Below are positions 22,083-34,369 of a DNA stretch of 34,369 bases, in pieces. Position numbers and translations under genes: made by a program. The notes under the pieces are model-generated. The model was not told the DNA's origin and searched no databases. It worked only from the letters and a program-made list of their open reading frames with translations. Position 1 is the first letter of the stretch. Each line of letters opens with the position of its first letter. Source of the DNA: Candidatus Woesearchaeota archaeon. Its GTDB lineage: Archaea; Nanobdellota; Nanobdellia; Woesearchaeales; JAADFO01. The DNA is taken from assembly GCA_016926055.1 (NCBI GenBank), contig JAFGPE010000026.1, forward strand, positions 1-34,369. Direction: 5' to 3'.

Positions 22083-22910
22083 ATGGAATCGCATGATGAT
22101 TTCAAGTTTGACGGAGATTGGAGAGCTACTCCGACTACATTCTTCGATAATTATCCTGATTGGATAAAGCTCAGAGCTACTGAATTAAGATTACCTGAAT
22201 ATATCAGCGGGGGCATTCCAAGAAAAAGGCTAGGAGAGCTGTTATTTCAGTTATCTGTTGCCCTTCTCTTGAAATCCCAAAAAGAAAAAGAATTTGTAAG
22301 AATTTCAAGAGAATATAACTTAAACTCTTTAAATTCTTTCATTAATGAATTCATAGAAAAAAATTATATTAGCTTAAAAGGTCTAGAAGCACATTACACT
22401 GAAATAAACAGAGGTAGATTCGAACATTATCAGCAGGACGGGATAAAATGTATTGCTCAAGTCATTGCAGGTTGTTTAAACCCATATGGCAATAATGTTG
22501 ATTACTTAACTCTGTTCGATCTTCATAAGCGTGACGGGCAACTGAAGAAATATGAAGAAAAGGATATAAGGAATTATGATAAAATCTTATCAAGGCATTT
22601 TAATATTGAATCAAAATTTATTAAAAGTCCGTATGACTATGTAGCTTTTCTCCTTGCAGGGTATCCAATTGTCAAATTGCATGTTTTAAAAGACCATGCA
22701 TATGCGGCCACAGGATTCACAACAGGATATGAAATAAAAATAAATGTAACTAGTGAGCGCATTAACATCCAAGAGCTTAATATATTCATCAATACAACTG
22801 TAGGCTATGATGATGATTACAAGATTTCATTCAATCAAGTTCCAAAACATTTTTATTCTACGAAGCTAGTGCTAAATCCCGTTAAATTGGGAGTTTCATC
22901 GAGAAATTGA
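22083..22910 (+). CDS. hypothetical protein (orphan, AT-rich)
   Basis: 275-aa ATG ORF with a leaderless-type promoter. I recognise no motifs. The composition is visibly more AT-rich than the ATPase or surface genes (hand counts of three 60-nt lines gave 17-40% GC). Confidence 0.6.
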   Translation: MESHDDFKFDGDWRATPTTFFDNYPDWIKLRATELRLPEYISGGIPRKRLGELLFQLSVALLLKSQKEKEFVRISREYNLNSLNSFINEFIEKNYISLKGLEAHYTEINRGRFEHYQQDGIKCIAQVIAGCLNPYGNNVDYLTLFDLHKRDGQLKKYEEKDIRNYDKILSRHFNIESKFIKSPYDYVAFLLAGYPIVKLHVLKDHAYAATGFTTGYEIKINVTSERINIQELNIFINTTVGYDDDYKISFNQVPKHFYSTKLVLNPVKLGVSSRN

Positions 22911-23958: not shown

Positions 23959-24779
23959 CTTAATTCCTCTTCTATCATCTCATCGCTAAAAGCAATCAGC
24001 GGCATCAAAACCATGTGTTTTGCGTTCATTCTATTAAAGCTTTCTAAAGTGTCCCCTGTGACTATTGCCTTTGCCTTCTTCCCTGCAGCAACCTCATCTA
24101 TTTGCTTTATGTTCTTTATCATGATTAACCTTATTCCCTGACCATATGAATACTTTTCAAGAAGGGACAAATCAAAATCTGAAAAGCCGACAGGAGTTAT
24201 AAAGCAACCCCTCTTCATCATAAGAAATGCTGCAAGAACATCCGCATCGTTTCTTATTAGGCAGACGACCCTGCCCTCCACTCCGAGCGGCAAGCCTCCT
24301 GCACCCTCAGCCCTCTCTGTAAAAATATAGGCATATTGGTTCATTATTTCAATTCCGATATCGATATCAGGATTTTCAAGTCTTACTTTCTTTCCTGTTT
24401 TCCCGACAACAAAAGCTCCAAGGATTCTGTTCAGCTCAGGAGAGCCTTCTGCTGTTGATTTTGTCAGCCTCCTGGCACTTATCCTGAAACTGTTGAAATT
24501 CCTGCTCTTTACAAGAGACAAAATGCCTTCCTCAATATCCTGGACTTTGGCAGGCGTTCTTATTGCTTGGCTAAAAGATGTTATTCCGAAGACATACTCG
24601 AGCTCTTTTACATTCTGCCGCACATTAATCAGTATCCTTCCTCTTGGCCGCTCTATGCTCTCATAACTGACGTTGTTCCTCTTCATGCAGTCAACTATGT
24701 TTTCAACAAGCTTTCTTTCAAACAATGCCCTGTTTTTTCCCTTCAACGCAAGCTCGCCATACCTTACAACCATCACCAT
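23943..24779 (-). CDS. ThiI-like THUMP-domain protein with a degenerate PP-loop (probable non-catalytic paralogue)
   Basis: N-terminus VVRYGELALKGKNRALFERKL is the ThiI signature, and a THUMP-like middle region follows. Where ThiI has LLSGGxDSPVA, this protein has LIRNDADVLAA (24237-24260), followed by the conserved FLMMKRGC. At 278 aa it is shorter than ThiI. 16-nt overlap with the Rpp30 gene. Confidence 0.75.
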   Translation of the reverse strand: MVMVVRYGELALKGKNRALFERKLVENIVDCMKRNNVSYESIERPRGRILINVRQNVKELEYVFGITSFSQAIRTPAKVQDIEEGILSLVKSRNFNSFRISARRLTKSTAEGSPELNRILGAFVVGKTGKKVRLENPDIDIGIEIMNQYAYIFTERAEGAGGLPLGVEGRVVCLIRNDADVLAAFLMMKRGCFITPVGFSDFDLSLLEKYSYGQGIRLIMIKNIKQIDEVAAGKKAKAIVTGDTLESFNRMNAKHMVLMPLIAFSDEMIEEELRCLRT

Positions 24780-24801
24780 GTGTGATTGTGCTATGATAAA
24801 C

Positions 24802-24809
24802 TATAAAAA
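24802..24809. promoter_or_regulatory. single central TATAAAAA element shared by the divergent ThiI-like and MBF1 genes
   Basis: The 52-nt intergenic region (24780-24831) divides as 22 nt + 8-nt TATA + 22 nt. Both flanking ATGs are equidistant, and neither has an SD. Confidence 0.45.
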
Positions 24810-24831
24810 TTTAACCCTTATCTTTGGAATA

Positions 24832-25302
24832 ATGCAATGTGAAATCTGCGGCAAGGATGAGCTTCTATTCAAGACAAATATAGAAGGCACCATGATGAAT
24901 GTCTGCAAGCCCTGCTCAAAATATGGTAAGGTCATATCTGCTGCAAGAGAGGAAACTGCTGTAAGGCAAAAAAAGAAAGATGAGAATAAGACAATCGCAA
25001 TAACGAGAAAGAAGGAAATCATACAGACAATAGTCGAGGATTATGGAGAAAAAGTGAAGAGGAAGAGGGAGCAGCTTGGGCTCAAGCAGGAAGAGCTTGC
25101 GAAGATGATTGCAGAAAAAGAATCCCTCCTGCACCACATCGAATCAGGAAAGTTCGAACCGAATATTGAACTTGCAAGAAAGCTTGAAAGATTTCTCAAG
25201 ATAAGCCTTGTGGAGGAATATGAAGAAGAGAATTCCCGGCTCCAACACACAAAAAGCGACGAGCTGACCATAGGCGACTTGATTAAGGTAAGAAAAAAGT
25301 AG
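24832..25302 (+). CDS. mbf1: archaeal multiprotein bridging factor 1 (zinc ribbon + HTH, MBF1 family)
   Basis: MQCEICGK...NVCKPCSKYG zinc ribbon followed by a cro/C1-type HTH (KRKREQLGLKQEELAKMIAEKESLLHHIESGKFEPNIELARKLERFL). The track ORF start at 24673 adds an implausible hydrophobic 53-aa extension that runs through the neighbouring gene's promoter. Confidence 0.88.
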   Translation: MQCEICGKDELLFKTNIEGTMMNVCKPCSKYGKVISAAREETAVRQKKKDENKTIAITRKKEIIQTIVEDYGEKVKRKREQLGLKQEELAKMIAEKESLLHHIESGKFEPNIELARKLERFLKISLVEEYEEENSRLQHTKSDELTIGDLIKVRKK

Positions 25303-28300
25303 CTAAGTCAGCAAATCCTTTATCAACTGTATAAATCTCAGCATGAAAATCTTCACGCTGTCAAATGCTGACGCGAGCGAGTTTGTGAGCTTGTCGAAGA
25401 AATTAGCTCTTGACTCAGGAAGCTCAAGGTAAGCATCCTTCTGGGAGATTATGTATTTGCACCCTTCGAGAGCATCATCGATAAGCTGCTGCGCTTTGCT
25501 GAACTGATTAGTCTGCAACGCTTTCTTTGCCTCGGTAAGAATCTCATTCAGTTCAAGGCATTCTGGATTCTCCCTGAACAAATCCTCTGTGAAAGTTATC
25601 TTTGTATTTATCTGGGAGACGTTCTCAAGACCTTTCTCGAGACTGTTGATGAATATCTTTGCTGTATCTGCAAACTCTGGCTGCTCGGCCTCTGCTTTCA
25701 CTGTTATTTCCTGCAGGCCATAGATGTTGTTGCCGGCATTTATGTAAAGAACAGTTTCAAATTCCTCACCGGGTTCGAGCTTCGCTAGGGGGTTGTTCTT
25801 GAATGAATAGTTCATTGAAAGATTCGTCAGGATGCTGAGGTTTATTTTGTTGAGGTCAGCCTCATAGTTGTTTACCAGCCTTATTGGTATTTCCATTGTT
25901 TCGTTCTTGTAGAGAGTGACTATTCCTGGCGAGATGAGTTCAATTGTCACCCTCTTTGTCAGATTCGTCTGGTTTATCACCTTTGTTTCCATTATTGTGA
26001 CCACTGAACTTCCTCCGCCTCCGCCTGAAGAAGCAGCAGTCTCTGTATGGGCCGGCGATGCCTGAAATAGTATTGTGACGTTGTTCGAGTAGGTTGTGTT
26101 ATAGCCGTCGTAAGCTGAAAAAGTCAAGGTGACTGTATTAGGGTTCTCTGAATACAATGTAACTACATTTGTTTCATTGTTTATTGTGACAGATATATCC
26201 ACACTTGTAGAGTAGTTATATGTAAGATTGTCTCCTGTGTCAAGGTCGTAGAAGAAGTTATCAAGATCTACCCACAACAGATAGCTATCTTCAATATACG
26301 ATAAGTTTCCTATCGTATAATGAACCTTGACATTAGAAATATCTGGTGTTGTCGTGCTATTGTTTGTCTCAAGGATCATCTTGTACTGGAGATACCTGTG
26401 AGGCGTTACATTAGGGACAAAGCTCTGTCCAGAATGGTTTGCACCCCATGCACCCAGCCCTGCCTGCGAAGCTGCCGTCCTTAACTGGAAAAGCACAGTG
26501 GTATTTGAACCGGTCGTATTTGTTCCTGACCATTCTATCAGCGATACATTTAAGTAGTTCTCCCCCTGGAAGTCAATTACAGGCGATAAATATGTTCCGC
26601 TAGTTATATATGCGCTGCCGTTTCTCGATAAAACTATCCTCCCATCAAGCGTAAGGTTTGTTGAATTGAATGTTCCGCTAATGAAATCAGAGTATGATTT
26701 GTGCTCCCTGAGGCCAAATATTATTGGCCTGTTAAGATTCAAAACAGTAACATTCCATGTTAACGAGGAATTAGTGGTGCCGTCACTTGCTATGGCCGTT
26801 ATATTATGGGTGCCTGCTGAAGAAAAATCAGGTGAGTACGTGTAGTTGTATGTGGTTCCGTTAACAGTGCCGTCTACAAGCCAATAGTAGCTCAATGTGT
26901 CAGAATCAGTAGCGGATATATTCATTCCCTGCGTGGAATTCTCATAAATTGAAAAGCTAAGGGATGTTGGATAATATCCTGTAATATTCGGCGGATTATT
27001 TATTGAAGTTATAAAAAAGACTATTGTTGTTGTGTTTACATTTGTCCCATCTGTAACGTTTATTATGATTGTGTGGTTGCCGCGGTCAGCCAAACTCGGA
27101 GTGAAATTGACCATTACAGATGAATAGTTCACGACTGTGAAGTTGAACAGGGAGGAGTTTGTTCCAAATGACAAGGTATCATTCTCCTCATCATATGCTG
27201 AAACATATTTTGTAAACAAGGTTCCATCATAGGCTGTCCAGTTTGTCAGCGGCGGCGTGAAATATGGCGGGTCATTCCTGAACCTGATTGAAAGATTAAA
27301 CTCTGCTGTGTCGAAGCCGTTTATGTAACCGTCGGATACGTTAACAGTTATTGTATAGTTTCCTACAAGAGTGTAGTCGGGAGTAAAGTTTATTCTTGCA
27401 GCAGTTGAATTGACAGATGTCAAGGTGAACAATGTTGAATTTGTATCATATGTCAGATTGTCGCCATCAGAGTCGAATGAGTTTATTGTAAGTACGAATG
27501 CGGAATCCTCTGTAACGCTCTGGTTCGATATGCTGTCCATTACAGGTGGCGAGTTTATTATCACAAAGAAGTTTATGACCTCTGAATCGTTTGCAATACC
27601 GTCTGACACAGTTATATTTATAGAGTAGTTCCCAAACTGACTATCTGTCGGCGTGAAGTTTATCATGCCTGTTGCCGAATCAACATATGTTATGTTGAAG
27701 AGTGTTGAGTTTGAGCTGAAGTTTAACGGGTCGTCATCCGCATCTGTGGCAGTTATAAGAAGCGTGAACGTATTGTTTATTCTTGCAGTCCTTTCACCTA
27801 TGCTCGTGAGAACAGGAGGGTTGTTTATGTCAAGTATGGTGAAGTAGATTATTGTGGTATTCGGAGCTCCCTTCTCATCTGTGGCAGTTATCGTGACAGT
27901 ATGATTTCCAACATCCGCATTGTCGGGAGTAAATTGTATTCTTCCTGCAGTTGCATTAAGCGCTGCTATATCGAACATGGCCGTATCATCCGAAAAGTTT
28001 ATGCTGTGGTTCTGCAGGTCGAATGCGGTTACATCTACGGAGAACGCTGAATTCTCATAGATGGTCTGGTTTTCCACAGGATATATCGAAGGAGGATTAT
28101 TGTTGGTTATTTCAATATTCATCAGGACGCTGGCATTAAGTGTACCGTCGCCAACAGTTATGTTTATTGTGTGATTGCCTGCGCTTCCTCCTGAAAGTGA
28201 GAAGGATATCAGGCCTGAAGCAGATATGTTGAATAACGATGTATTGTCATAATAATAGAGACTGTCGTATGTATCTACATCTGTTGCATTAACCTGATAT

Positions 28301-29355
28301 GAGAAAGGCGCATACTCATATGCCGTCTGGTCTGGAATCTGCTGGATGACAGGAACATCATTAACTGGCGTGACATTCAGTGTTATGTTGTTGCCTAGTG
28401 TCCTGTTGTAGCCATCAAATATCTCAAAGTAGATTACCTCTGCTCCTGTAAAGTTACCTGTTGGTATAAAGCTGACATTGTGCGTCGATTCGTTTATCAC
28501 TATCCTTATGGATGAGTTTCCATACGCTGCGTAGGTGATTGAGTCATTATTCTGGCCTGTGCATTCCATGTTGTCCAGGTCATAGAAATACTCGTCAAGG
28601 TCCAGTATGTTAACCAAGTTAGTGTCCTCGGGCCATGTCTGATTCTCAAATGTTTTGTTGTGGACAGGTATTCTGTTCGAGTTCAATACTGATACATTCC
28701 AGACCACATAATCTGATGCATTATATAAGTCACTTACAACAAGCGTTATGTTATGATAGCCTGCTTCACAATAGCTTGCCACAAACAACCACGTAGTGTT
28801 TATTGATATGTTGACTGAGTTCTTGTAATAGACGTTGCTAAGGTTGTCTATATTTGGATGGACAAGGTCATCATCAGAAGCATTATAGTCAAATGTAAAA
28901 CCTATTGTGTCGTTTTCATACATCGCAGGAGTCAGATTTGAAGGCGCATACTGCGTTATGTTCGGCGCATCGTTTGTATTGGTTATATTGAATGTGACAA
29001 ACCTTGTTGCTCCCTCTATCGGTGTCCCTGCATCTTTCACAATTATCGTTATCGTATAGGACACAGCAGAATCATTATTTACGGCTGTAAAGTTTATCAG
29101 GGCAGAGGTATCATTGTAGTTATGCATATAGAAGACAGGCAATATTGATTCGGAATCGTCTGAAAAGTTAAGGGGATATTCCCCATCGGAATCTGTTGCC
29201 TCGACATAATACGTGAACAACTGGTCTTCGTATAGCGTAAAATTGTTCGGAAGATCGGTGAAAACAGGGTCTGCAGACTGAACAAAGCTTGCCGATAGAG
29301 CTGCAGATATCAGAACCAATGCCAGGAAATAAAATCTGCCGTCTCTAAGCTGCAT
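25303..29355 (-). CDS. giant secreted surface protein: signal peptide, ~9-10 cadherin-like repeats, Gly5 hinge, CARDB-like and helical C-terminal module
   Basis: Start ATG at 29353-29355 (MQLRDGRFYFLALVLISAALSASFVQS) lies 6 nt after GGAGG and overlaps the upstream gene by 11 nt. Recurrent inter-domain linkers are NDAP/NDVP/NNPP/NSPP/NDPP. About 94 N-x-S/T sequons by manual count. No TM anchor seen. Confidence 0.85.
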   Translation of the reverse strand: MQLRDGRFYFLALVLISAALSASFVQSADPVFTDLPNNFTLYEDQLFTYYVEATDSDGEYPLNFSDDSESILPVFYMHNYNDTSALINFTAVNNDSAVSYTITIIVKDAGTPIEGATRFVTFNITNTNDAPNITQYAPSNLTPAMYENDTIGFTFDYNASDDDLVHPNIDNLSNVYYKNSVNISINTTWLFVASYCEAGYHNITLVVSDLYNASDYVVWNVSVLNSNRIPVHNKTFENQTWPEDTNLVNILDLDEYFYDLDNMECTGQNNDSITYAAYGNSSIRIVINESTHNVSFIPTGNFTGAEVIYFEIFDGYNRTLGNNITLNVTPVNDVPVIQQIPDQTAYEYAPFSYQVNATDVDTYDSLYYYDNTSLFNISASGLISFSLSGGSAGNHTINITVGDGTLNASVLMNIEITNNNPPSIYPVENQTIYENSAFSVDVTAFDLQNHSINFSDDTAMFDIAALNATAGRIQFTPDNADVGNHTVTITATDEKGAPNTTIIYFTILDINNPPVLTSIGERTARINNTFTLLITATDADDDPLNFSSNSTLFNITYVDSATGMINFTPTDSQFGNYSINITVSDGIANDSEVINFFVIINSPPVMDSISNQSVTEDSAFVLTINSFDSDGDNLTYDTNSTLFTLTSVNSTAARINFTPDYTLVGNYTITVNVSDGYINGFDTAEFNLSIRFRNDPPYFTPPLTNWTAYDGTLFTKYVSAYDEENDTLSFGTNSSLFNFTVVNYSSVMVNFTPSLADRGNHTIIINVTDGTNVNTTTIVFFITSINNPPNITGYYPTSLSFSIYENSTQGMNISATDSDTLSYYWLVDGTVNGTTYNYTYSPDFSSAGTHNITAIASDGTTNSSLTWNVTVLNLNRPIIFGLREHKSYSDFISGTFNSTNLTLDGRIVLSRNGSAYITSGTYLSPVIDFQGENYLNVSLIEWSGTNTTGSNTTVLFQLRTAASQAGLGAWGANHSGQSFVPNVTPHRYLQYKMILETNNSTTTPDISNVKVHYTIGNLSYIEDSYLLWVDLDNFFYDLDTGDNLTYNYSTSVDISVTINNETNVVTLYSENPNTVTLTFSAYDGYNTTYSNNVTILFQASPAHTETAASSGGGGGSSVVTIMETKVINQTNLTKRVTIELISPGIVTLYKNETMEIPIRLVNNYEADLNKINLSILTNLSMNYSFKNNPLAKLEPGEEFETVLYINAGNNIYGLQEITVKAEAEQPEFADTAKIFINSLEKGLENVSQINTKITFTEDLFRENPECLELNEILTEAKKALQTNQFSKAQQLIDDALEGCKYIISQKDAYLELPESRANFFDKLTNSLASAFDSVKIFMLRFIQLIKDLLT

Positions 29356-31894
29356 TCTTTTCCTCCCTCTTTGAGATAATCTCATCGTATGCTTTCTTGA
29401 TATCGGAGTATACCTCGTTTTTGTCTGACTCATCAAGCATATTGTACTGTTTAACAAGCGACTTGTATTTCTCAGAGGCGATGACGAGGTTACCTGATGA
29501 TATCTCCCTTCTCGTTTCCTTGATTTCCGCCTTTAACTTCCCGACAGCTATTGCTTTTGTCTGCTTGAATTCGACAGTAATTATGTTCTCCACAAGAGAC
29601 TTTGCTTTGTCTATCTCTGAAGAAAGTTTTGCAGGACTCAGTTCCTCCCTGGTGAACCTCAGCTCCTCAAGAGCCGTGTAAAACTCGGATATCTGGTTTT
29701 TTGTTGCCTGCGAAAGCCTTTGTTTCTCAAGTTCCTGCTTAAGTTCCTCGAGTGTGAAAGCATAGTCTATTTTCAAGGTGGTTGTTATGAAGCCTCTCAT
29801 CAGAGAACTTAACTCCTCGACTATCTGCCTTGAGCTTTTCTTTCCTATGCTAAGCTTCAGTTCTATGAGCCTCTGAAGGAGATAAGCATATATGCTCGCC
29901 ATTGTCGGCTCATACCTTTGTTTTAATTTGCTGACAAGCTCTGAGGCTTTTGATGATAGCTTCTTCGCTGTTTTCCTTAGCGGCTTTCTGAATACTATAA
30001 TAAGAGGAATAATGAGCAGAAGGATAATCAGAAGCTTTCCCCACCAGCTCAAACCAAGCTTTCTCAATGGAGCAGGCATCTCCAGCAGCCTCTTCCTTGT
30101 TCCTCCCAGGCAAGGCGGGCATGGGCCACCGCAGTCTATATCCTCCTCGCCCTGGTTCTTTATTCCGTCGCTACAGGTTGGGCAAGGCGGGCATGGGCCA
30201 CCGCAGTCGACTCCTGTCTCGCCGCCGTTCTTCAGGTGGTCATCACAGGTAGGAATATATATGCAGCTCATTGTCTCATTCGGCTTGTTCAATGTTGTGT
30301 TGCACCCTGTTAAATCAACACATGTCCTTGTCCTGAAGCCCTCTGGATAACACTTTCCCCAAAGAGTACACTGCCAGTTTTCTTTGCAGAGTGTGCGGTA
30401 ATAAAGTGCTCCGCCTCCTCCACCGCCACCCCCTCCGCCTCCTCCACCTCCTGACTCGGGAGTGTCTATTATTATTATGTATACGATATTGCTGTTCGCT
30501 GTTGCATTAAAAGGGTCTCGGGCAGTAAACACCATTGCCCTTTCGCCGTGAAAATCAGGGGCAGGATTCAATGTCACTACATTTGAGCTGGAGTCTATCA
30601 AAACCTCTATGTTTGCCACATCAGATGCTGTGTAAGTTAAAATATCGCCGTCAGGATCAATAAAATAATCATCCAAATCAAGTCCTGTGAGCGATCTGTC
30701 CTCAAGCCATATCAAAGACGGGATCGATACTGCCAGAATTGGCGGCCTGTTTGTTATGTAAAAATAATCTGTTGCGCTTTCGCTGTAATAATTTGTTCTG
30801 TTGCATACGACATTCCATGTATGGTTGCCCTGCCTGCTGAATATTCCTGAATAATTGAATAGCAATTGGTTAACATCGTATTCCATCTGATAGAACGCTG
30901 TCCAGTTTCCTGTTGTGTTAAATCGTATATAACAGCTGCCATCACCTATCAGACTGTTGTTGAGATACGAATAGTTGGCATAAAACCCCACTGTCTGGTT
31001 ATTGTATCTCGTGTAATTGTCTGTATCGTCCCTCAATACTACACTCGCACTCTCCTCTATATCTATGCTCCCCATGTGGTTCACTATGATAAATGAAAGG
31101 TTTCCATAGAAGCTGCTGTTTCCATTGTATGAAAATGAGCCACATATAGAATATGGACAAGGTCTTCCCTCGAAATACCTGAAGGGTTCTACCAAAGTAA
31201 GATTGTAGAATGTAAGGCTCGCGGTCTTGTTCAGGTTAGGAATGGCTGAGGCATTGAATATAAGATGCTGCCTGCCCATGTCTATACTGCCATCAAGGTC
31301 GTATCCATTTATATCTGAAACTGTGCTATATCTTATCTGGGCATACCATGGTATTCCCAGCATAAGGTTCTGAACATTGTCCCAGCAGGTGTAGTTAGAG
31401 AGATTTGTCGATATGCTGTTGTTGAATTTGCTCCACGACGGCTCAGCGCAGTTTGTCACTTCAAGAGGCAGGATTTTCGTAACAATTGAATTCGAGCAGC
31501 CGACACTATCATTCACAGAAATTCGAATGCTGTAGCTTCCAACATAAGCTATTGTCGGAATGAAGTTCATCACTCCCTCCTGCGTTATGTTAAAGAGAAC
31601 TGTGTTATCAGAGAATATCAGCGACGCTCCCTCAGGGTCTGATGCATCTGCCTGACAGTAGTAGTTATGGGCTATCTGAACTGTTGTGTTGCAATGGCTG
31701 ATATTAAGTATTGGGGCAGCATTTATGCAAAGCTCAACAAAGCCATAGGCGCCGGCTTTTCCGGTTAATTCATATCCAACTTTTTTGCAGATAAGGTAAT
31801 TCGACAGCGAGGACAGCAGTATGAAAGCTATCACCAACAAAGCAATCATGTTGTTGCTTATCCCAGGTCTCTGTTGAATATCAACTTTTCTCAT
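29345..31894 (-). CDS. bitopic surface protein: signal/anchor, cadherin-like domains, Gly14 hinge, two DCGGPCPPC Cys-rich modules, TM helix, ~210-aa cytoplasmic coiled-coil tail
   Basis: 849 aa. N-terminal hydrophobic MIALLVIAFILLSSL, Gly run encoded at 30410-30451, CDDHLKNGGETGVDCGGPCPPC and CSDGIKNQGEEDIDCGGPCPPC, TM LSWWGKLLIILLLIIPLIIVF, then a K/E-rich helical tail. ATGA overlap with the upstream gene. Confidence 0.85.
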   Translation of the reverse strand: MRKVDIQQRPGISNNMIALLVIAFILLSSLSNYLICKKVGYELTGKAGAYGFVELCINAAPILNISHCNTTVQIAHNYYCQADASDPEGASLIFSDNTVLFNITQEGVMNFIPTIAYVGSYSIRISVNDSVGCSNSIVTKILPLEVTNCAEPSWSKFNNSISTNLSNYTCWDNVQNLMLGIPWYAQIRYSTVSDINGYDLDGSIDMGRQHLIFNASAIPNLNKTASLTFYNLTLVEPFRYFEGRPCPYSICGSFSYNGNSSFYGNLSFIIVNHMGSIDIEESASVVLRDDTDNYTRYNNQTVGFYANYSYLNNSLIGDGSCYIRFNTTGNWTAFYQMEYDVNQLLFNYSGIFSRQGNHTWNVVCNRTNYYSESATDYFYITNRPPILAVSIPSLIWLEDRSLTGLDLDDYFIDPDGDILTYTASDVANIEVLIDSSSNVVTLNPAPDFHGERAMVFTARDPFNATANSNIVYIIIIDTPESGGGGGGGGGGGGGGALYYRTLCKENWQCTLWGKCYPEGFRTRTCVDLTGCNTTLNKPNETMSCIYIPTCDDHLKNGGETGVDCGGPCPPCPTCSDGIKNQGEEDIDCGGPCPPCLGGTRKRLLEMPAPLRKLGLSWWGKLLIILLLIIPLIIVFRKPLRKTAKKLSSKASELVSKLKQRYEPTMASIYAYLLQRLIELKLSIGKKSSRQIVEELSSLMRGFITTTLKIDYAFTLEELKQELEKQRLSQATKNQISEFYTALEELRFTREELSPAKLSSEIDKAKSLVENIITVEFKQTKAIAVGKLKAEIKETRREISSGNLVIASEKYKSLVKQYNMLDESDKNEVYSDIKKAYDEIISKREEKNAA
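30109..30136. repeat. 28-nt perfect direct repeat, copy 1 (ggcaaggcgggcatgggccaccgcagtc)
   Basis: Identical to 30181-30208, 72 nt (24 codons) apart and in frame. Encodes the DCGGPCPPC core of the Cys-rich module. Confidence 0.9.
30181..30208. repeat. 28-nt perfect direct repeat, copy 2
   Basis: Identical to 30109-30136. Confidence 0.9.
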
Positions 31895-32394
31895 CTTTTT
31901 ACCTTTTTTTGTTGAATATCAACAAATATTTGTTTTGTCGCATACGTTACCTTCCAGTAATCCATGAACTCCTTTATTTTCTCAATTCCTTTTTCAGGCA
32001 GGATGATGCTGTTTCTGCCAATTGTGCTTCCATTTACTTCCCCAAGAAGACCGCTGTCATTGCCCCTGCCCTTCAGGGCGTATCCGAAAAGTGTTTTGTT
32101 TGAATGACCTAGCGATTCAAGACCATATGTAATAATGAACTGTCTTTCCAGCCCGAAAACCTGGTGCAGAGTCTTGCCATGCCTTGCACTATGGCAGTCA
32201 AGAAGGTGTTTTGCCCTTAAGGGGAAGTCTGATAATCTAAAATAACTTTTTATCTTTAAATAAGAAGCCAGCTCTGAATGTAATTCTCTTATGTTCTCAG
32301 TGCTGTCCAAAAAAACCAGGTGAATGCCGTCATCTGATGAAAGAATGTCGAAAATACAACTGTATCTATTCATGACCTCTTTTAAATCGGGCAT
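31891..32394 (-). CDS. hypothetical cytoplasmic protein embedded in the surface-protein locus
   Basis: 167 aa with no signal peptide or TM. ATG start with an ATTTATATAATA element (32414-32425) 20-31 nt upstream. ATGA overlap with the 849-aa gene. No family recognised. Confidence 0.6.
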   Translation of the reverse strand: MPDLKEVMNRYSCIFDILSSDDGIHLVFLDSTENIRELHSELASYLKIKSYFRLSDFPLRAKHLLDCHSARHGKTLHQVFGLERQFIITYGLESLGHSNKTLFGYALKGRGNDSGLLGEVNGSTIGRNSIILPEKGIEKIKEFMDYWKVTYATKQIFVDIQQKKVKR

Positions 32395-32448: not shown

Positions 32449-32859
32449 TCATATTGCCTTGAAGAAGAATCTTATAGTGGAAGTGTGGTTACCAAATGCT
32501 GCATCTCTTGGCGGATAGATTCTAAACATGATGTCTTTTGTCTGGTTATACAGAAAGAAAGAATAATACTCTGGTTCTATCCAAGTCGCTATAGGGCCAT
32601 CAATCCTTATTGTGACGAGGCTAGGCTCTTTCAGGTGATGTGATATTTGTATTGCTCTTTCAGCACTTCCTCCAGGAAATACTGTCCCAAAATAAAGCTT
32701 GTCTGTATCAAGATTAAACCCTACATAATCCCCTATCTCAACATGAGCGTCTACAGTGAGCGCATCCTGCACAACCCTGTGGACATATATGAAAGAAGTC
32801 AGTCCTGCCGCAACCAGGGCAACTGTAAAAAGAAGGAGCAATAATTTGTTTAATCTCAT
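32449..32859 (-). CDS. small signal-anchored beta-sandwich protein (PapD/ASH-like 'LYFGTV..G' pattern)
   Basis: 136 aa. N-terminal MRLNKLLLLLFTVALVAAGL. LYFGTVFPGGSAERAIQISH...VTIRIDGP resembles ASH/choice-of-anchor-type beta-sandwiches. 4-nt overlap with the upstream gene. Confidence 0.65.
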   Translation of the reverse strand: MRLNKLLLLLFTVALVAAGLTSFIYVHRVVQDALTVDAHVEIGDYVGFNLDTDKLYFGTVFPGGSAERAIQISHHLKEPSLVTIRIDGPIATWIEPEYYSFFLYNQTKDIMFRIYPPRDAAFGNHTSTIRFFFKAI

Positions 32860-34043
32860 GGTTCCTTCCTTTTCCTCTTTTTCAGCCAGATAATATCGAA
32901 TATGATGACCAGCAATACAAAAACTACAATTATTAGTGTCAGAGTTATTGAATTAAACCCTTGCTTCTTCTCTTCCTCTTTCGTCTCAACGGCTTCCTCG
33001 ATTATCTCAACACTGACTTTCTGTTCTGAGGAATATACCTTGTCTTCGCCCTTCTCCTTGAAGAAGAGGTTAATCTTTACTTCAGCCGGCCCGAGCTGAA
33101 AACCTGTCGTGTCGATATAGCTCTGCAACATTGATTCGGCGAATTGCTGCATTTCTATTGTGGGCGATTTAAAGTTCTGGTTGTAAATCTCGCCTGTCGC
33201 ATATACTTCTTCCAGCTCGTTGTTCCATTGGTTCTCGACCAGCATCTCGAACTTATTTATCTTTTCTTCAATAAGTTTTTCAGTGGTTCTCAATAGCTTA
33301 AGTTCGAGAACTCCGACTTTGAACTCTGCTTTAGCCTCTTTCTTGTCTCCTTCGTAAAAATAGGTCGCTTTTCCAAAGTATTTTCCCGGCAGATAGTTCT
33401 CAGAATGCAGTATCTCTGAAAGTGTTGTTGTTTCACCGGAATTGATGTTGATGTCATTGAAATTGATTACGTCTTTAAGAACATCATCTTTGTCCCTTAT
33501 TTCAACAACTGCGTTGGTATTGAGGAGGGGCTCTTTTCCCCTGCTAGTTATCCTCAGATTAACATTTGTGCTCCTGTTAATATTGGTATTGGCTATATCA
33601 AAATATAGGTCCGCGTATTTTCCCGGATAGGGTACTAGGAAAGTCAACCAACCCTCAACAGCTGTTGAAACTCCGATTGTTCCCCCTGTAGAAACTGCGT
33701 CAGCAACGTAAACAGCAATCGTGTTCTTTCCTGGCGTTGGATTAGCGTCTTTTGGTATCTTGACTTTAAAGGTGAAAGGCACCACCCCTGATTCAGGAAC
33801 CGTTGTTTCCATGCACTTGGGGTATATGTACTCCTTTGGCTCAACATACTTTGAAAGCTCACCCATCATATAAATGACGACTGGTGTCTGAAACCCCGGG
33901 TCAGCCCTTGCATAGAATTTAAATTCATATGTCCTTCCAGGCTCAAAATCAACTTCATGTATTGCAGGAACAAGGCCAACTGCAGAAACATCAACCAATA
34001 ACAGAATAAATACAAAAATGTGGAGAAATGATTTCGATATCAT
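32856..34043 (-). CDS. secreted surface protein with a C-terminal TM anchor and basic tail
   Basis: 395 aa. Signal peptide FLHIFVFILLLVDVSAVG, a beta-rich ectodomain, and the C-terminus QGFNSITLTLIIVVFVLLVIIFDIIWLKKRKRKEP. Confidence 0.7.
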   Translation of the reverse strand: MISKSFLHIFVFILLLVDVSAVGLVPAIHEVDFEPGRTYEFKFYARADPGFQTPVVIYMMGELSKYVEPKEYIYPKCMETTVPESGVVPFTFKVKIPKDANPTPGKNTIAVYVADAVSTGGTIGVSTAVEGWLTFLVPYPGKYADLYFDIANTNINRSTNVNLRITSRGKEPLLNTNAVVEIRDKDDVLKDVINFNDININSGETTTLSEILHSENYLPGKYFGKATYFYEGDKKEAKAEFKVGVLELKLLRTTEKLIEEKINKFEMLVENQWNNELEEVYATGEIYNQNFKSPTIEMQQFAESMLQSYIDTTGFQLGPAEVKINLFFKEKGEDKVYSSEQKVSVEIIEEAVETKEEEKKQGFNSITLTLIIVVFVLLVIIFDIIWLKKRKRKEP

Positions 34044-34071: not shown

Positions 34072-34369
34072 TCAACCTGTGTTTGATCCAGTGAACTGGA
34101 ATGTCACGTTGGAATGTCCTGTTGTTGCGTCCTGTGGAACCCCTACCATGACATAGACACCGACACTGTTTGCCGTTATGTTTGCAGTGAGATTGCCGCA
34201 GATTGAGTATTTTGTTCCTCCCGTTATGTTCTGCCATGTGTTCCAGTTAGAGGCATTATAACCGAGTATCGTGTTGTTGAAGCAGCCGTTGGCATATCCT
34301 GTGGCATAGCCGAGCCGTGAGGAGTATGCTATATACGAGCTGGCGCTTGAGCTTGGCAGGAATGTTCCT
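34072..34369 (-). CDS. 3' end of a secreted G/T/N/S/Y-rich protein (partial; continues beyond the window)
   Basis: My own translation of the minus strand is open for 98 codons to TGA at 34072-34074: ...SYIAYSSRLGYATGYANGCFNNTILGYNASNWNTWQNITGGTKYSICGNLTANITANSVGVYVMVGVPQDATTGHSNVTFQFTGSNTG. It is almost uncharged, has several sequons, and is pilin- or S-layer-like in composition only. Confidence 0.55.
   Translation of the reverse strand, partial: GTFLPSSSASSYIAYSSRLGYATGYANGCFNNTILGYNASNWNTWQNITGGTKYSICGNLTANITANSVGVYVMVGVPQDATTGHSNVTFQFTGSNTG

What the first reader, a model, noticed from the sequence alone, without database searches (positions are those of the whole stretch)
25303..31894. 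Two translationally coupled giant cadherin-like repeat proteins: one membrane-anchored with a cytoplasmic coiled coil, one anchorless
Seen: the 849-aa protein has a signal/anchor, cadherin-like domains, a Gly14 hinge, Cys-rich modules, a TM helix and a ~210-aa K/E-rich helical cytoplasmic tail. The next gene starts 11 nt before its stop, 6 nt after a GGAGG inside the upstream coding sequence. That gene encodes ~1350 aa with a signal peptide, about 9-10 tandem ~95-aa domains separated by N(D/N/S)xP linkers, a Gly5 hinge and a CARDB-like plus helical C-terminus, but no TM. Both proteins share (L/V)DLDxYFxDxD motifs. Inference: the anchored protein may hold the long anchorless one as a heteromeric adhesin stalk, with the cytoplasmic coiled coil coupling it to the cell interior. 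For a putative episymbiotic small archaeon this is a candidate host-attachment apparatus.
Basis: partly seen in the sequence, partly recalled or inferred. Interest (0 to 1): 0.7.

Follow-up and report, generated by a model that had tools for sequence, protein, structure and literature searches.

The report
Conserved paired surface-stalk proteins of Woesearchaeota
Two overlapping genes encode a pair of long, sugar-coated, cadherin-like cell-surface proteins; the pair sits in one larger gene cluster in dozens of tiny (DPANN, Woesearchaeota-type) archaeal species and is even fused into one protein in some, so it looks like a core surface or contact structure of these uncultured cells.

Summary
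On the minus strand, A (29345-31894, 849 aa) and B (25303-29355, 1350 aa) overlap by 11 nt, with GGAGG 6 nt before B's ATG. The Gly14 and Gly5 hinges, Cys-rich modules, TM, helical tail and shared LDLDxYFxD motifs are all present.

New findings:
- A and B end a six-gene operon whose order recurs in Woesearchaeota-type genomes. An A-type gene sits directly upstream of B in 48 of 52 informative loci.
- Four database proteins are in-frame A-B fusions.
- B belongs to a colinear 12-domain family of more than 350 members. Its repeats match true cadherin repeats, and N-glycosylation sequons are enriched threefold.
- 61 of 66 B relatives carry their own C-terminal TM. "Anchorless" describes only this subclade.
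- A's tail is a conserved helical domain, not a demonstrated coiled coil. A soluble paralogue is encoded beside MoxR-DUF58-BatA(VWA) in most relatives.

Best reading: A and B are partner subunits of a membrane-anchored, calcium-stiffened glycoprotein stalk that is linked to the cytoplasm through A. Whether it serves host attachment or acts as an S-layer-like coat is open. I found no published description. Verdict: new variant of a known kind, interest about 0.6.

The parts
34075..34368 (-). C-terminal part of a small secreted beta-rich protein (the '233-aa family'). It is cut by the window end and is the first visible gene of the operon.
   Evidence: An HMM built from L001 7265-7963 and its relatives hits this ORF at E 9e-14. 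The same family precedes g1 in many related loci.
32856..34043 (-). g1, 395 aa: signal peptide, beta-rich ectodomain, C-terminal TM and KRKRK tail.
   Evidence: 32% identity to the L001 counterpart. The HMM finds it in 30 loci. Relatives give sub-threshold WxLIP_HBD hits (E 1.6e-4 and 0.025).
32449..32859 (-). g2, 136 aa: N-terminal membrane anchor plus one Ig-like beta-sandwich. Its start overlaps the g1 stop by 4 nt.
   Evidence: 30 loci. A relative hits PG_0320-like_C at 2.6e-5.
31891..32394 (-). g3, 167 aa: small cytoplasmic protein of unknown function. Its stop overlaps A's start by 4 nt.
   Evidence: 32-55% identity to counterparts in L001-L003. No Pfam, NCBIfam or PDB match.
29345..31894 (-). 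Gene A, 849 aa: membrane-spanning stalk subunit.
31781..31855 (-). A aa 14-38: N-terminal signal anchor or signal peptide helix.
   Evidence: Hydropathy; AF2 helix 14-38.
30467..31726 (-). A aa 57-476: four beta-sandwich ectodomains. The last (aa 382-470) is Big_9 type and carries LDLDDYFIDPDGD.
   Evidence: This is the invariant motif block in alignment A1. Sequons: 24 observed against 7.8 +/- 2.4 in shuffles.
30410..30451 (-). A aa 482-495: Gly14 hinge.
   Evidence: A run of at least five Gly is invariant in all nine family members.
30110..30388 (-). A aa 503-595: Cys-rich membrane-proximal pedestal. It has a CxxxWxCxxWxxC...RxCxD module followed by two 24-aa four-Cys repeats, TCxDGIxNxGExxxDCGGPCPPC.
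   Evidence: The repeats are 62-67% identical to tandem repeats in Bacteroidota T9SS reprolysin-like proteins.
29972..30061 (-). A aa 612-641: transmembrane helix followed by a basic stretch, RKPLRKTAKK.
   Evidence: Hydropathy 2.58; AF2 helix 617-634.
29348..29971 (-). A aa 642-849: conserved helical cytoplasmic domain with motifs FxxxxLKIxYxFTxEEL and AxxxYxxxxxxYxxLxxxxKxxVY.
   Evidence: It is homologous to stand-alone proteins encoded between B and MoxR in relatives. 196 cluster representatives match at E <= 1e-3. It contains no sequons.
29345..29366 (-). Coupling junction: GGAGG (29366-29362), 6-nt spacer, B's ATG (29355-29353), A's TAG (29347-29345).
   Evidence: Overlaps or short gaps also occur in relatives.
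25303..29355 (-). Gene B, 1350 aa: long cadherin-like stalk subunit.
29272..29355 (-). B aa 1-28: Sec-type signal peptide. A cleavage site after QSA is inferred from the sequence.
   Evidence: Hydropathy. It aligns with the N-termini of homologues. In fusion proteins it serves as TM3.
26716..29271 (-). B aa 29-880: nine tandem beta-sandwich domains (cadherin, He_PIG, Big_9 and PKD-like) joined by conserved N-D/N-x-P linkers. The third carries LDLDEYFYD.
   Evidence: The family profile matches protocadherin-15, CELSR1 and cadherin-23 repeats at E 2e-16 to 1e-6.
26341..26715 (-). B aa 881-1005: jelly-roll insert domain (D10), possibly galactose-binding/discoidin-like.
   Evidence: AF2 pLDDT about 97. 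One of 14 homologues hits F5_F8_type_C at 2.9e-4.
26056..26340 (-). B aa 1006-1100: last Big_9-type domain, carrying VDLDNFFYD.
26011..26025 (-). B aa 1111-1115: Gly5 hinge inside a disordered linker (aa 1104-1135).
   Evidence: GGGG appears in the family consensus.
25435..25944 (-). B aa 1138-1307: membrane-proximal pedestal, made of a beta-sandwich and a three-helix bundle. The bundle carries the invariant NPECLELNE motif and two invariant Cys (aa 1266 and 1299).
   Evidence: This motif retrieved 97 species genomes.
25309..25410 (-). B aa 1316-1349: terminal hydrophobic/amphipathic helix, which replaces the C-terminal TM found in 61 of 66 relatives.

Best explanation
A and B are the two partner subunits of a membrane-anchored surface stalk that is conserved across Woesearchaeota-type DPANN archaea.

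Both proteins follow the same plan:
1. A Sec signal or signal anchor.
2. A rod of cadherin/Big_9-type beta-sandwich domains with Ca2+-site-like linkers, carrying many N-glycans.
3. A poly-Gly hinge.
4. A compact membrane-proximal pedestal. In A this is a set of disulfide-knotted Cys repeats. In B it is a beta-sandwich plus a disulfide-clamped helical bundle.
5. A C-terminal membrane segment.

The two are made in fixed proportion by translational coupling, or in some lineages as a single fused chain. They are inferred to sit side by side. B would project an 11-domain rod of roughly 45-50 nm and A a shorter 4-domain arm.

A alone continues into a conserved 210-aa helical cytoplasmic domain. In relatives a soluble paralogue of this domain is encoded next to MoxR (AAA+), DUF58 and BatA (VWA). 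A is therefore inferred to link the outer stalk to a cytoplasmic and membrane chaperone-like module.

In this genome B's own TM has decayed to a hydrophobic/amphipathic helix. Here B is probably retained through that helix and/or through A.

Most likely role (inferred): a core adhesive or spacing fibril of the cell surface that mediates cell-cell or cell-surface contact.

Shown: the anatomy, gene coupling, co-conservation, fusions, topology and family relationships. Inferred: physical A-B contact, Ca2+ binding, glycosylation, rod length, the link to MoxR/VWA and the biological role.
For: - Anatomy and gene overlap.
- Operon: g1, g2, g3, A and B are packed with 4-11-nt overlaps or gaps of 54 nt or less. 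A 233-family gene lies at the window edge.
- Conserved order [small secreted proteins][g1][g2][g3][A][B] in L001-L004 and many of 80 further loci.
- An A-type gene sits directly upstream of B in 48 of 52 loci that have enough upstream DNA. About half of these show an overlap or a gap of 52 nt or less.
- In-frame A-B fusions P0069, P0083, P0087 and P0091 have four TMs in the expected order.
- The B family has 358 hits at E <= 1e-10. 66 aligned members are colinear with 27-44% identity in every domain and few gaps.
- The B profile matches solved cadherin repeats at E down to 2.4e-16. Conserved N-x-N-D-x-P, DxD and E positions lie at the linkers.
- Sequons: B 94 observed against 30.6 +/- 4.6 in shuffles; A ectodomain 24 against 7.8 +/- 2.4; A tail 0.
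- Tail homologues are encoded as stand-alone genes between B and MoxR in 42 of 54 loci. MoxR-DUF58-BatA lies downstream of B in 49 of 67 loci with at least 3 kb of downstream DNA.
- 61 of 66 B relatives have a C-terminal TM plus basic tail, which places the pedestal at the membrane.
Against: - No direct evidence of A-B contact. Complex prediction was not possible with the tools.
- In most relatives both proteins have their own anchors, so co-operonic but independent function is not excluded, although the fusions argue against it.
- MoxR, DUF58, BatA and the soluble tail paralogue are not in this window.
- No distinct ligand-binding tip domain was found. D1 is as conserved as the other domains.
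- The amphipathic character of B's terminal helix is not statistically distinctive: 205 of 2000 shuffles reach the same hydrophobic moment.
- The A model is of only moderate quality (pLDDT 67), and its Cys-rich part is poorly modelled.
- Fold searches gave only generic strings of Ig-like domains.
Confidence: 0.6

Rival explanations
1. Two-component S-layer-type cell coat. B is the main envelope glycoprotein of Woesearchaeota: a type I membrane glycoprotein built of Ig-like domains, like the S-layer glycoproteins of haloarchaea and methanogens. A is a second, membrane-spanning coat or anchor subunit, loosely comparable to SlaB with SlaA.
For: - B has a fixed length, and all 12 domains are evenly conserved across 66 colinear members.
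- The family is found in at least 97 species genomes.
- B has a signal peptide, Ig-like domains, threefold sequon enrichment and, in 61 of 66 relatives, a C-terminal TM plus basic tail.
- The two genes are co-transcribed as a large and a smaller subunit, as for SlaA (1424 aa) and SlaB (475 aa) (PMC10903991).
- I found no S-layer protein assigned for this lineage in the library searched.
Against: - The conserved cadherin-type linkers predict straight rods rather than a compact lattice-forming arrangement.
- There is no sequence or fold match to any solved S-layer protein beyond generic Ig strings.
- A's helical region is cytoplasmic, unlike SlaB's extracellular coiled coil.
- Expression level and lattice formation are unknown.
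Confidence: 0.25
2. Components or substrates of a MoxR/VWA-dependent envelope machine. This would be an archaeal counterpart of the bacterial Bat system, or of the secretion or membrane-remodelling complex predicted by Makarova, Galperin and Koonin (2015). A and B would be its extracellular Ig-like elements, and A's tail the docking site for the ATPase module.
For: - MoxR-DUF58-BatA is adjacent in 49 of 67 informative loci, with a soluble tail paralogue in between in 42 of 54.
- The archaeal MoxR is 51.5% identical to the Bat-operon MoxR of Bacteroides.
- A published prediction describes an archaeal complex of MoxR, vWA and Ig-like S-layer-like membrane proteins (PMC5898192).
Against: - The defining arCOG01314/DUF4350 protein is not among the called genes of L001-L004.
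- No MoxR, DUF58 or BatA gene lies in the window.
- The tail shows no significant similarity to the Bat-operon gene between DUF58 and BatA (hhalign probability 0.3%).
- g1 shows no similarity to BatD (0.4%).
- DUF4381 hits are all sub-threshold.
- The function of Bat systems is itself unknown.
Confidence: 0.2
3. Two independent fibrillar adhesins that merely share an operon. Each would bind its own ligand and no heteromer would form.
For: - Both have their own signal sequence and, in most relatives, their own TM anchor.
- Large Ig-repeat adhesin genes often cluster.
- Fold hits include the extender regions of RTX adhesins, SiiE and SraP.
Against: - The A-B order is strictly conserved in 48 of 52 loci.
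- The start and stop codons overlap.
- Three or four independent in-frame fusions exist.
- Both share the same hinge-and-pedestal design.
- There is no domain shuffling or length variation of the kind typical of repeat adhesins.
Confidence: 0.1

Closest known systems
SlaA/SlaB two-component S-layer of Sulfolobales (PMC10903991)
   Same: - A co-transcribed pair of one large, beta-rich, heavily N-glycosylated protein of about 1400 aa and a smaller membrane-anchored beta-sandwich stalk protein.
- A flexible hinge in the large subunit.
- In this window the large subunit lacks a TM.
   Different: - No detectable sequence or specific fold relation.
- SlaB's long helix is an extracellular coiled coil that ends in the TM. 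A's helical domain lies after the TM, in the cytoplasm.
- Most B relatives have their own TM.
- B is built of cadherin-type repeats with rigid linkers.
Type I membrane S-layer glycoproteins of Euryarchaeota (for example the haloarchaeal csg); comparison from my own knowledge
   Same: A signal peptide, several Ig-like domains, dense glycosylation, a flexible linker before a C-terminal membrane anchor, and a short basic tail. The B family shows this architecture.
   Different: - No homology was tested or found.
- No PGF-CTERM or archaeosortase signal.
- B has 12 domains with cadherin-type linkers and a helical-bundle pedestal.
- B has an obligate partner gene, A.
Cadherin-like, Ca2+-dependent fibrillar adhesins and 'tandem-95 repeat' / Big_9 / He_PIG surface proteins of bacteria and archaea; eukaryotic cadherins
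   Same: - Repeat type and linker motifs. Big_9, Cadherin_5 and He_PIG score above their cut-offs in B.
- The family profile matches protocadherin-15, cadherin-23 and CELSR1.
- Foldseek hits include RTX-adhesin extenders, SiiE and SraP.
- NCBI names some homologues 'tandem-95 repeat protein'.
   Different: - Fixed 12-domain colinear architecture rather than variable repeat number.
- No identifiable tip adhesion domain.
- A C-terminal TM and pedestal instead of T1SS, LPXTG or T9SS signals.
- A partner subunit with a cytoplasmic domain.
- The NCBIfam tandem-95 score is below its curated cut-off (68 against 90).
Bat operon (MoxR-DUF58-x-BatA-BatB-BatC-BatD-BatE) of Bacteroidota and spirochaetes
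   Same: In relatives, MoxR, DUF58 and BatA-type VWA genes flank the A-B cluster. They match the same Pfam families, and MoxR is 51.5% identical to the Bacteroides protein.
   Different: - Only the first three gene types are present; no BatB-E was seen.
- The archaeal locus adds the A/B stalk, g1-g3, small secreted proteins and the tail paralogue.
- None of these Bat-type genes lies in the window itself.
Predicted archaeal secretion or membrane-remodelling complex around arCOG01314 (Makarova, Galperin and Koonin 2015, PMC5898192)
   Same: A MoxR/GvpN-type ATPase, a vWA protein and several membrane or secreted Ig-like 'S-layer-like' proteins in one neighbourhood. It was predicted only by comparative genomics.
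   Different: - The signature DUF4350 (arCOG01314) protein and the DUF1616-type proteins were not seen here.
- It was described for Euryarchaeota, not DPANN.
- The A, B and tail families are not part of that description.
WxL / Csc cell-surface clusters of Firmicutes; comparison from my own knowledge
   Same: A similar gene set: small secreted beta-rich proteins, a protein with signal peptide, beta-domains and C-terminal TM (WxLIP, DUF916/DUF3324), and a very large anchored Ig-repeat protein. Relatives of g1 give weak WxLIP_HBD hits (E 1.6e-4 and 0.025).
   Different: All hits are below the Pfam cut-off (22 against 28.9 bits). No WxL domain was detected. The anchoring chemistry differs.

Membership tests
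Pfam Big_9 (PF17963) bacterial Ig-like domain | Score above the gathering threshold of 23.6 bits | tested here: met
   A 39.7 bits (aa 382-470); B 75.3 bits in four stretches.
Cadherin-like repeat (Pfam Cadherin_5 PF17892; solved cadherin EC repeats) | HMM score above 26.5 bits, or a significant profile match to solved EC repeats that includes the linkers | tested here: met
   B scores 29.1 bits. The B-family profile matches protocadherin-15 (2.4e-16), CELSR1 (4.2e-16) and cadherin-23 (2.4e-10) across consecutive repeats. A alone scores only 21.6 bits, below the cut-off.
Cadherin-like repeat | Ca2+ bound at inter-domain linkers | not testable with these tools
   Only conserved N-x-N-D-x-P, DxD and E positions are seen. 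Ion binding is inferred.
NCBIfam tandem-95 repeat protein (NF012211) | Whole-protein score of at least 90 bits | tested here: not met
   B 68.2 bits in six stretches; A 30.8 bits. Some homologues are nevertheless given this name by NCBI.
CARDB (PF07705), as claimed for B's C-terminal beta-sandwich | HMM match | tested here: not met
   No CARDB hit at E <= 0.1. AF2 shows a generic beta-sandwich at aa 1138-1238.
SlaA/SlaB two-component S-layer | Co-transcribed pair of a large and a small subunit | tested here: met
   11-nt overlap within one operon.
SlaA/SlaB two-component S-layer | Large subunit has no membrane anchor and is held by the small one | tested here: inconclusive
   The window's B lacks a TM, but 61 of 66 relatives have one.
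SlaA/SlaB two-component S-layer | Small subunit has beta-sandwich domains, an extracellular coiled coil and a C-terminal TM | tested here: not met
   A's helical domain follows the TM and is cytoplasmic.
SlaA/SlaB two-component S-layer | Sequence or fold homology to SlaA or SlaB | tested here: not met
   No PDB sequence or profile hit. Neither appears in the top 50 Foldseek matches.
S-layer in general | Forms a regular 2-D lattice and is a very abundant protein | not testable with these tools
   Needs cryo-ET and proteomics.
Fibrillar adhesin | Stalk of repeated Ig-like domains plus a cell anchor | tested here: met
Fibrillar adhesin | Distinct adhesive or ligand-binding domain, usually distal | tested here: inconclusive
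   D1 is an ordinary repeat and as conserved as the rest. The only non-Ig module is the jelly-roll D10 near the base, with one weak discoidin hit among 14 homologues.
Bat-type MoxR-DUF58-BatA module | Genes for MoxR AAA+, DUF58 and BatA_N+VWA next to the locus | tested here: not met
   Absent from the window. Present next to A-B in 49 of 67 related loci, with Pfam scores above the cut-offs. In the closest long relative, L001, these genes lie upstream of the small-protein genes, which is beyond this window's edge.
arCOG01314-associated predicted secretion complex (PMC5898192) | DUF4350/arCOG01314 membrane protein in the neighbourhood | tested here: not met
   No such Pfam family among the called genes of L001-L004. 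The other loci were not scanned for it.
DUF4381 (PF14316), considered for A's TM plus tail | Score of at least 27.2 bits | tested here: not met
   10.5 bits for the window's A, 18.8 for P0160 and 17.1 for P0213.
WxL-interacting protein (WxLIP_HBD PF11797), considered for g1 | Score of at least 28.9 bits | tested here: not met
   22.0 and 15.0 bits in two relatives; no hit for the window's g1.

The most novel reading that the evidence does not exclude
A and B form an integrin-like two-chain transmembrane receptor in an archaeon.

B would be a long Ig-rod chain with a short tail. A would be a shorter chain with Cys-rich repeats next to the membrane and a cytoplasmic adaptor-binding domain. Their conformation or assembly at the cell surface would be controlled from inside the cell. 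The controller would be a MoxR AAA+ / DUF58 / BatA-VWA module that docks on the tail domain and on its soluble paralogue. This would be ATP-dependent inside-out control of cell-cell adhesion in DPANN archaea.
Probability: 0.1. Interest if true: 0.85.

Novelty: new variant of a known kind. Interest (0 to 1): 0.6.

Why it matters
Woesearchaeota are among the most widespread uncultured archaea. Neither their envelope nor their supposed host-contact structures have been assigned to genes.

This locus gives a concrete, lineage-wide candidate. It contains a fixed-architecture pair of glycoprotein stalks with a transmembrane link to the cytoplasm. It sits in a conserved cluster of about eleven genes, next to a MoxR/VWA module whose function is a long-standing puzzle in bacteria.

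It provides defined targets for metaproteomics, antibodies, cryo-ET interpretation and multimer modelling. The A-B fusions offer a natural handle for testing subunit contact.

Tried and rejected
- PDB fold searches with both models returned only generic strings of Ig, cadherin and RTX-extender domains, with TM-scores of 0.18 or less.
- PDB sequence or profile searches gave nothing for B as a single sequence, the A family, g3, g1 or the D10 domain.
- I suspected from memory that A's TM plus tail is DUF4381-like. Only sub-threshold hits resulted. hhalign of the tail family against the Parabacteroides Bat-operon gene between DUF58 and BatA gave probability 0.3%. Rejected as unsupported.
- g1 against BatD by hhalign gave 0.4%. 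Rejected.
- The small 76-aa and 233-aa proteins looked like TasA/SipW-type or class III pilin-type proteins. No Pfam or NCBIfam support was found, and the class III motif does not fit.
- A word-index homology search with the tail alignment found only two hits, probably because K/E-rich words saturated the candidate list.
- The first attempt at search for related loci with the 51-sequence alignment failed for lack of a conserved stretch.
- The metagenome scan for close relatives of B, meant to test strain-level hypervariability, found nothing above 41% identity.
- An exact-sequence look-up of A found no record.
- The literature searches found no description of these families or of this locus.
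- The amphipathicity of B's terminal helix is not significant against shuffles.


Full report
**Check of the observation**

Both ORFs lie on the minus strand at the stated coordinates. A is 29345-31894 (849 aa). B is 25303-29355 (1350 aa, counted from the ATG that homologues support).

B's ATG (29355-29353) lies 11 nt before the end of A's TAG (29347-29345). GGAGG (29366-29362) precedes it by a 6-nt spacer. Other operon-internal genes in the window also carry SD-like motifs 3-7 nt upstream of their starts, so this is the local way of starting internal cistrons.

A has the following features:
- An N-terminal hydrophobic helix (aa 14-38).
- Four beta-sandwich domains (aa 57-476). The last is a Big_9 domain above the Pfam cut-off.
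- A Gly14 run (aa 482-495).
- 14 cysteines in aa 503-595.
- A TM helix (aa 612-641) followed by basic residues.
- A 209-aa tail rich in K and E, predicted to be all-helical.

B has the following features:
- A signal peptide.
- Nine tandem domains of 86-105 aa separated by eight N(D/N/S/R)xP linkers.
- A jelly-roll insert and a further Big_9 domain.
- A Gly5 run inside a disordered linker.
- A beta-sandwich, a three-helix bundle and a terminal 34-residue helix (the model of aa 870-1350 has pLDDT 85.5).

The shared LDLDxYFxD motifs are present: A at aa 405, B at aa 251 and 1029.

Three details need qualification. A 'coiled coil' is not demonstrated. 'CARDB-like' has no HMM support. 'No TM' is literally true of this B protein but misleading for the family, as shown below.

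**Organism and surroundings**

The window is archaeal. It carries an A-type ATPase operon, FtsZ, PolB, RNase P p30 and an MBF1-type HTH gene.

All close homologues of A and B come from Woesearchaeota, Nanoarchaeota or unclassified DPANN-type MAGs.

A and B are the last two genes of a tightly packed same-strand operon:
- a partial gene for a small secreted beta-rich protein at the window edge (34075-34368);
- g1 (395 aa: signal peptide, beta-rich ectodomain, C-terminal TM);
- g2 (136 aa: N-terminal anchor plus one Ig-like domain);
- g3 (167 aa, cytoplasmic, no known family);
- A, then B.

Overlaps are 4-11 nt and gaps are 54 nt or less.

**Co-conservation**

Contigs carrying full-length A homologues all show the order g1-g2-g3-A-B.

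I probed one genome per species with B's most conserved motif, NPECLELNE, which lies in the C-terminal helical bundle. This retrieved 97 genomes, and 80 loci were kept. Family HMMs built in-session were then used to map each locus.

The canonical order is [76-aa and 233-aa small secreted proteins][g1][g2][g3][A][B], then a stand-alone homologue of A's tail (usually on the opposite strand), then [MoxR][DUF58][BatA-VWA].

- An A-type gene, recognised by its Cys-rich module, sits directly upstream of B in 48 of 52 loci with enough upstream DNA. About half show an overlap or a gap of 52 nt or less.
- MoxR-DUF58-BatA follows B in 49 of 67 loci with at least 3 kb of downstream DNA. A stand-alone tail gene lies in between in 42 of 54.
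- In the window these downstream genes are replaced by MBF1, a THUMP/ThiI-like gene and RNase P p30.
- In L001, the closest relative with a long contig, MoxR-DUF58-BatA lies upstream of the small-protein genes. In the window that position is beyond the edge.

**Fusions**

Four database proteins contain A and B in one reading frame: P0069 (2351 aa, 12 member sequences), P0083 (2285 aa, 19), P0087 (2255 aa, 6) and the N-truncated P0091.

Their order is TM1, A ectodomain, Cys repeats, TM2, tail, TM3 (B's signal sequence), B ectodomain, pedestal, TM4.

This is classic Rosetta-stone evidence that the two act together in 1:1 proportion. It also fixes the topology: the tail lies on the side of the membrane opposite both ectodomains. 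Two further results agree. P0002 has an extra TM and cadherin domain after its tail. Sequons are completely absent from the tail but enriched in the ectodomains.

**The B family**

There are 358 hits at E <= 1e-10, most of them 1340-1470 aa long with 95-100% coverage.

An alignment of 66 members is colinear. Each of the 12 domains shows 27-44% identity to the window protein with few gaps. This is a fixed architecture, not a repeat array that expands and contracts.

A profile of the family matches solved cadherin repeats across consecutive domains: protocadherin-15 at 2.4e-16, CELSR1 at 4.2e-16 and cadherin-23 at 2.4e-10. The most conserved positions are the N-x-N-D-x-P linkers and the DxD and E residues that bind Ca2+ in cadherins (the ion binding itself is inferred).

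B has 94 N-x-S/T sequons against 30.6 +/- 4.6 in shuffles. The family median is 6.4 per 100 aa.

61 of 66 members end in a genuine TM helix plus a K/R-rich tail. Only the window protein and its two closest relatives (P0024 from L005, P0045 from L001) end in a weaker hydrophobic/amphipathic helix instead. Its hydrophobic moment is unremarkable against shuffles. B's pedestal therefore sits at the membrane and the N-terminus points outward. 'Anchorless' is a derived trait of one subclade.

**The A family**

Nine aligned members share the following:
- the N-terminal anchor;
- the Big_9 domain with an invariant LDLDDYFxDPDGD block;
- a run of at least five glycines;
- a CxxxWxCxxWxxC...RxCxD module;
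- one to four copies of a 24-residue four-Cys repeat;
- the TM and the tail.

The 24-residue repeat is 62-67% identical to tandem repeats in Bacteroidota T9SS reprolysin-like proteins.

The tail carries two conserved motifs, FxxxxLKIxYxFTxEEL and a C-terminal TPR-like hairpin, AxxxYxxxxxxYxxLxxxxKxxVY.

An exhaustive profile search found 196 cluster representatives at E <= 1e-3. Most are stand-alone proteins of 200-350 aa. Some are A-type proteins with the domain after a TM at about residue 600-750.

**Mechanism**

A and B share one design: signal sequence, Ca2+-stiffened glycosylated rod, poly-Gly hinge, compact pedestal and a membrane segment.

I infer that they stand side by side as a heteromeric stalk. 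B would extend roughly 45-50 nm, from 11 beta-sandwich domains at about 4-4.5 nm each (the per-domain size comes from general knowledge of cadherins). A would form a shorter arm, and its cytoplasmic domain would couple the assembly to partners inside the cell.

The consistent neighbourhood with a soluble tail paralogue and MoxR-DUF58-BatA suggests that those partners belong to a MoxR/VWA chaperone-like module. This is guilt by association only.

In this genome, where B's TM has decayed, retention through A or through the terminal helix is plausible.

**Role**

The evidence does not decide between an adhesive or spacing fibril and an S-layer-like coat.

- For a fibril: rigid cadherin-type linkers; a possible galactose-binding-like jelly-roll (D10, with one weak discoidin hit among 14 homologues); the presumed episymbiotic lifestyle.
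- For a coat: fixed length; even conservation including the distal domain; wide distribution; the typical archaeal S-layer-glycoprotein topology; and a gene arrangement like SlaA/SlaB.
- Against SlaA/SlaB membership: no homology, and A's helices lie on the wrong side of the membrane.

I commit to 'partner subunits of a membrane-anchored surface stalk' at 0.6. Within that, I favour an adhesive or contact fibril over a lattice.

**Comparison with what is known**

The closest published idea is the comparative-genomic prediction of an archaeal complex of a MoxR ATPase, a vWA protein and Ig-like S-layer-like membrane proteins around arCOG01314 (PMC5898192). Its signature DUF4350 protein is not seen here, and the A, B and tail families are not part of that description.

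The MoxR-DUF58-BatA genes are true counterparts of the first genes of the bacterial Bat operon. MoxR is 51.5% identical to the Bacteroides protein, and the Pfam families are the same. BatB-E are missing.

Searches of the held literature found no description of this locus or these families. Database names are 'hypothetical', 'Ig-like domain-containing' or 'tandem-95 repeat protein'.

**Verdict**

The component kinds are known: cadherin-like Ig-repeat surface proteins and a MoxR/VWA module. The following appear undescribed:
- the obligate A-B pair with matching hinge-and-pedestal design;
- the conserved cytoplasmic tail domain with a soluble paralogue;
- the eleven-gene Woesearchaeota locus as a whole.

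I rate this a new variant of a known kind, with interest 0.6.

Noticed in passing
P0069, P0083, P0087, P0091 (database proteins; relatives of window 25303-31894): In some Woesearchaeota lineages A and B are fused in frame into one four-TM protein of 2250-2350 aa. B's signal sequence serves as the third TM.
   Followed up: yes
window 30110-30253 (A aa 548-595): A 24-residue four-Cys repeat, TCxDGIxNxGExxxDCGGPCxxC, is 62-67% identical to long tandem arrays in Bacteroidota T9SS reprolysin-like metalloproteases (P0009, P0018, P0031). No Pfam model covers it. This may be an inter-domain shared module.
   Followed up: partly
L066 5089-6165 and L067 9287-10363: A protein of about 358 aa consists only of B's C-terminal pedestal (beta-sandwich plus NPECLELNE helical bundle) and directly follows g1-g2. 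No A gene and no Ig rod are present. The pedestal may be the ancestral core of the system.
   Followed up: no
L019, L030, L038, L039, L042, L043, L045, L050: In this variant locus type A is about 1850 aa. In seven of these eight loci (not L038) a small Ig-only ORF lies between A and B. There is no stand-alone tail gene, and MoxR follows B within about 100 nt.
   Followed up: no
L001 4032-5018 versus Bacteroides, Parabacteroides and Phocaeicola records (L085): The archaeal MoxR is 49-51.5% identical to the MoxR of the bacterial Bat operon. That is unusually high for an archaeon-bacterium pair and may indicate horizontal transfer of the MoxR-DUF58-BatA module.
   Followed up: partly
window 25302/25303: B's stop codon abuts the stop of the convergent MBF1-like gene (zinc ribbon plus HTH_3; 24673-25302, + strand) with zero intergenic bases. 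No room is left for a terminator between the two genes.
   Followed up: no
window 31891-32394 (g3) and relatives: This conserved small cytoplasmic protein has a strongly conserved C-terminal motif, LxTYxLxxLxHSxKTLFGYALKGRxxxxGxL...GRNxxxxP. It has no Pfam, NCBIfam or PDB match. It is detected in only 17 loci.
   Followed up: partly
window 19892-21658 (+) and 22083-22910 (+): Two sizeable ORFs (588 aa and 275 aa) have no significant Pfam family. The first gives only weak P-loop-like hits around aa 344-396.
   Followed up: no
window 32856-34043 (g1): g1 has very few N-glycosylation sequons (0.24 per 100 aa), unlike A (2.8) and B (6.8), even though it is also predicted to be extracellular.
   Followed up: no
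P0076: A B homologue with 38% identity and 87% coverage is labelled as coming from a CPR bacterium (Candidatus Uhrbacteria). This is probably a mis-binned contig, but it could be a transfer.
   Followed up: no
L049 and L051 (same MAG, CAYWLA01); L077 and L079 (JAGVXQ01): Two genomes carry two copies of the B-type gene on different contigs, so the locus is not always single-copy.
   Followed up: no
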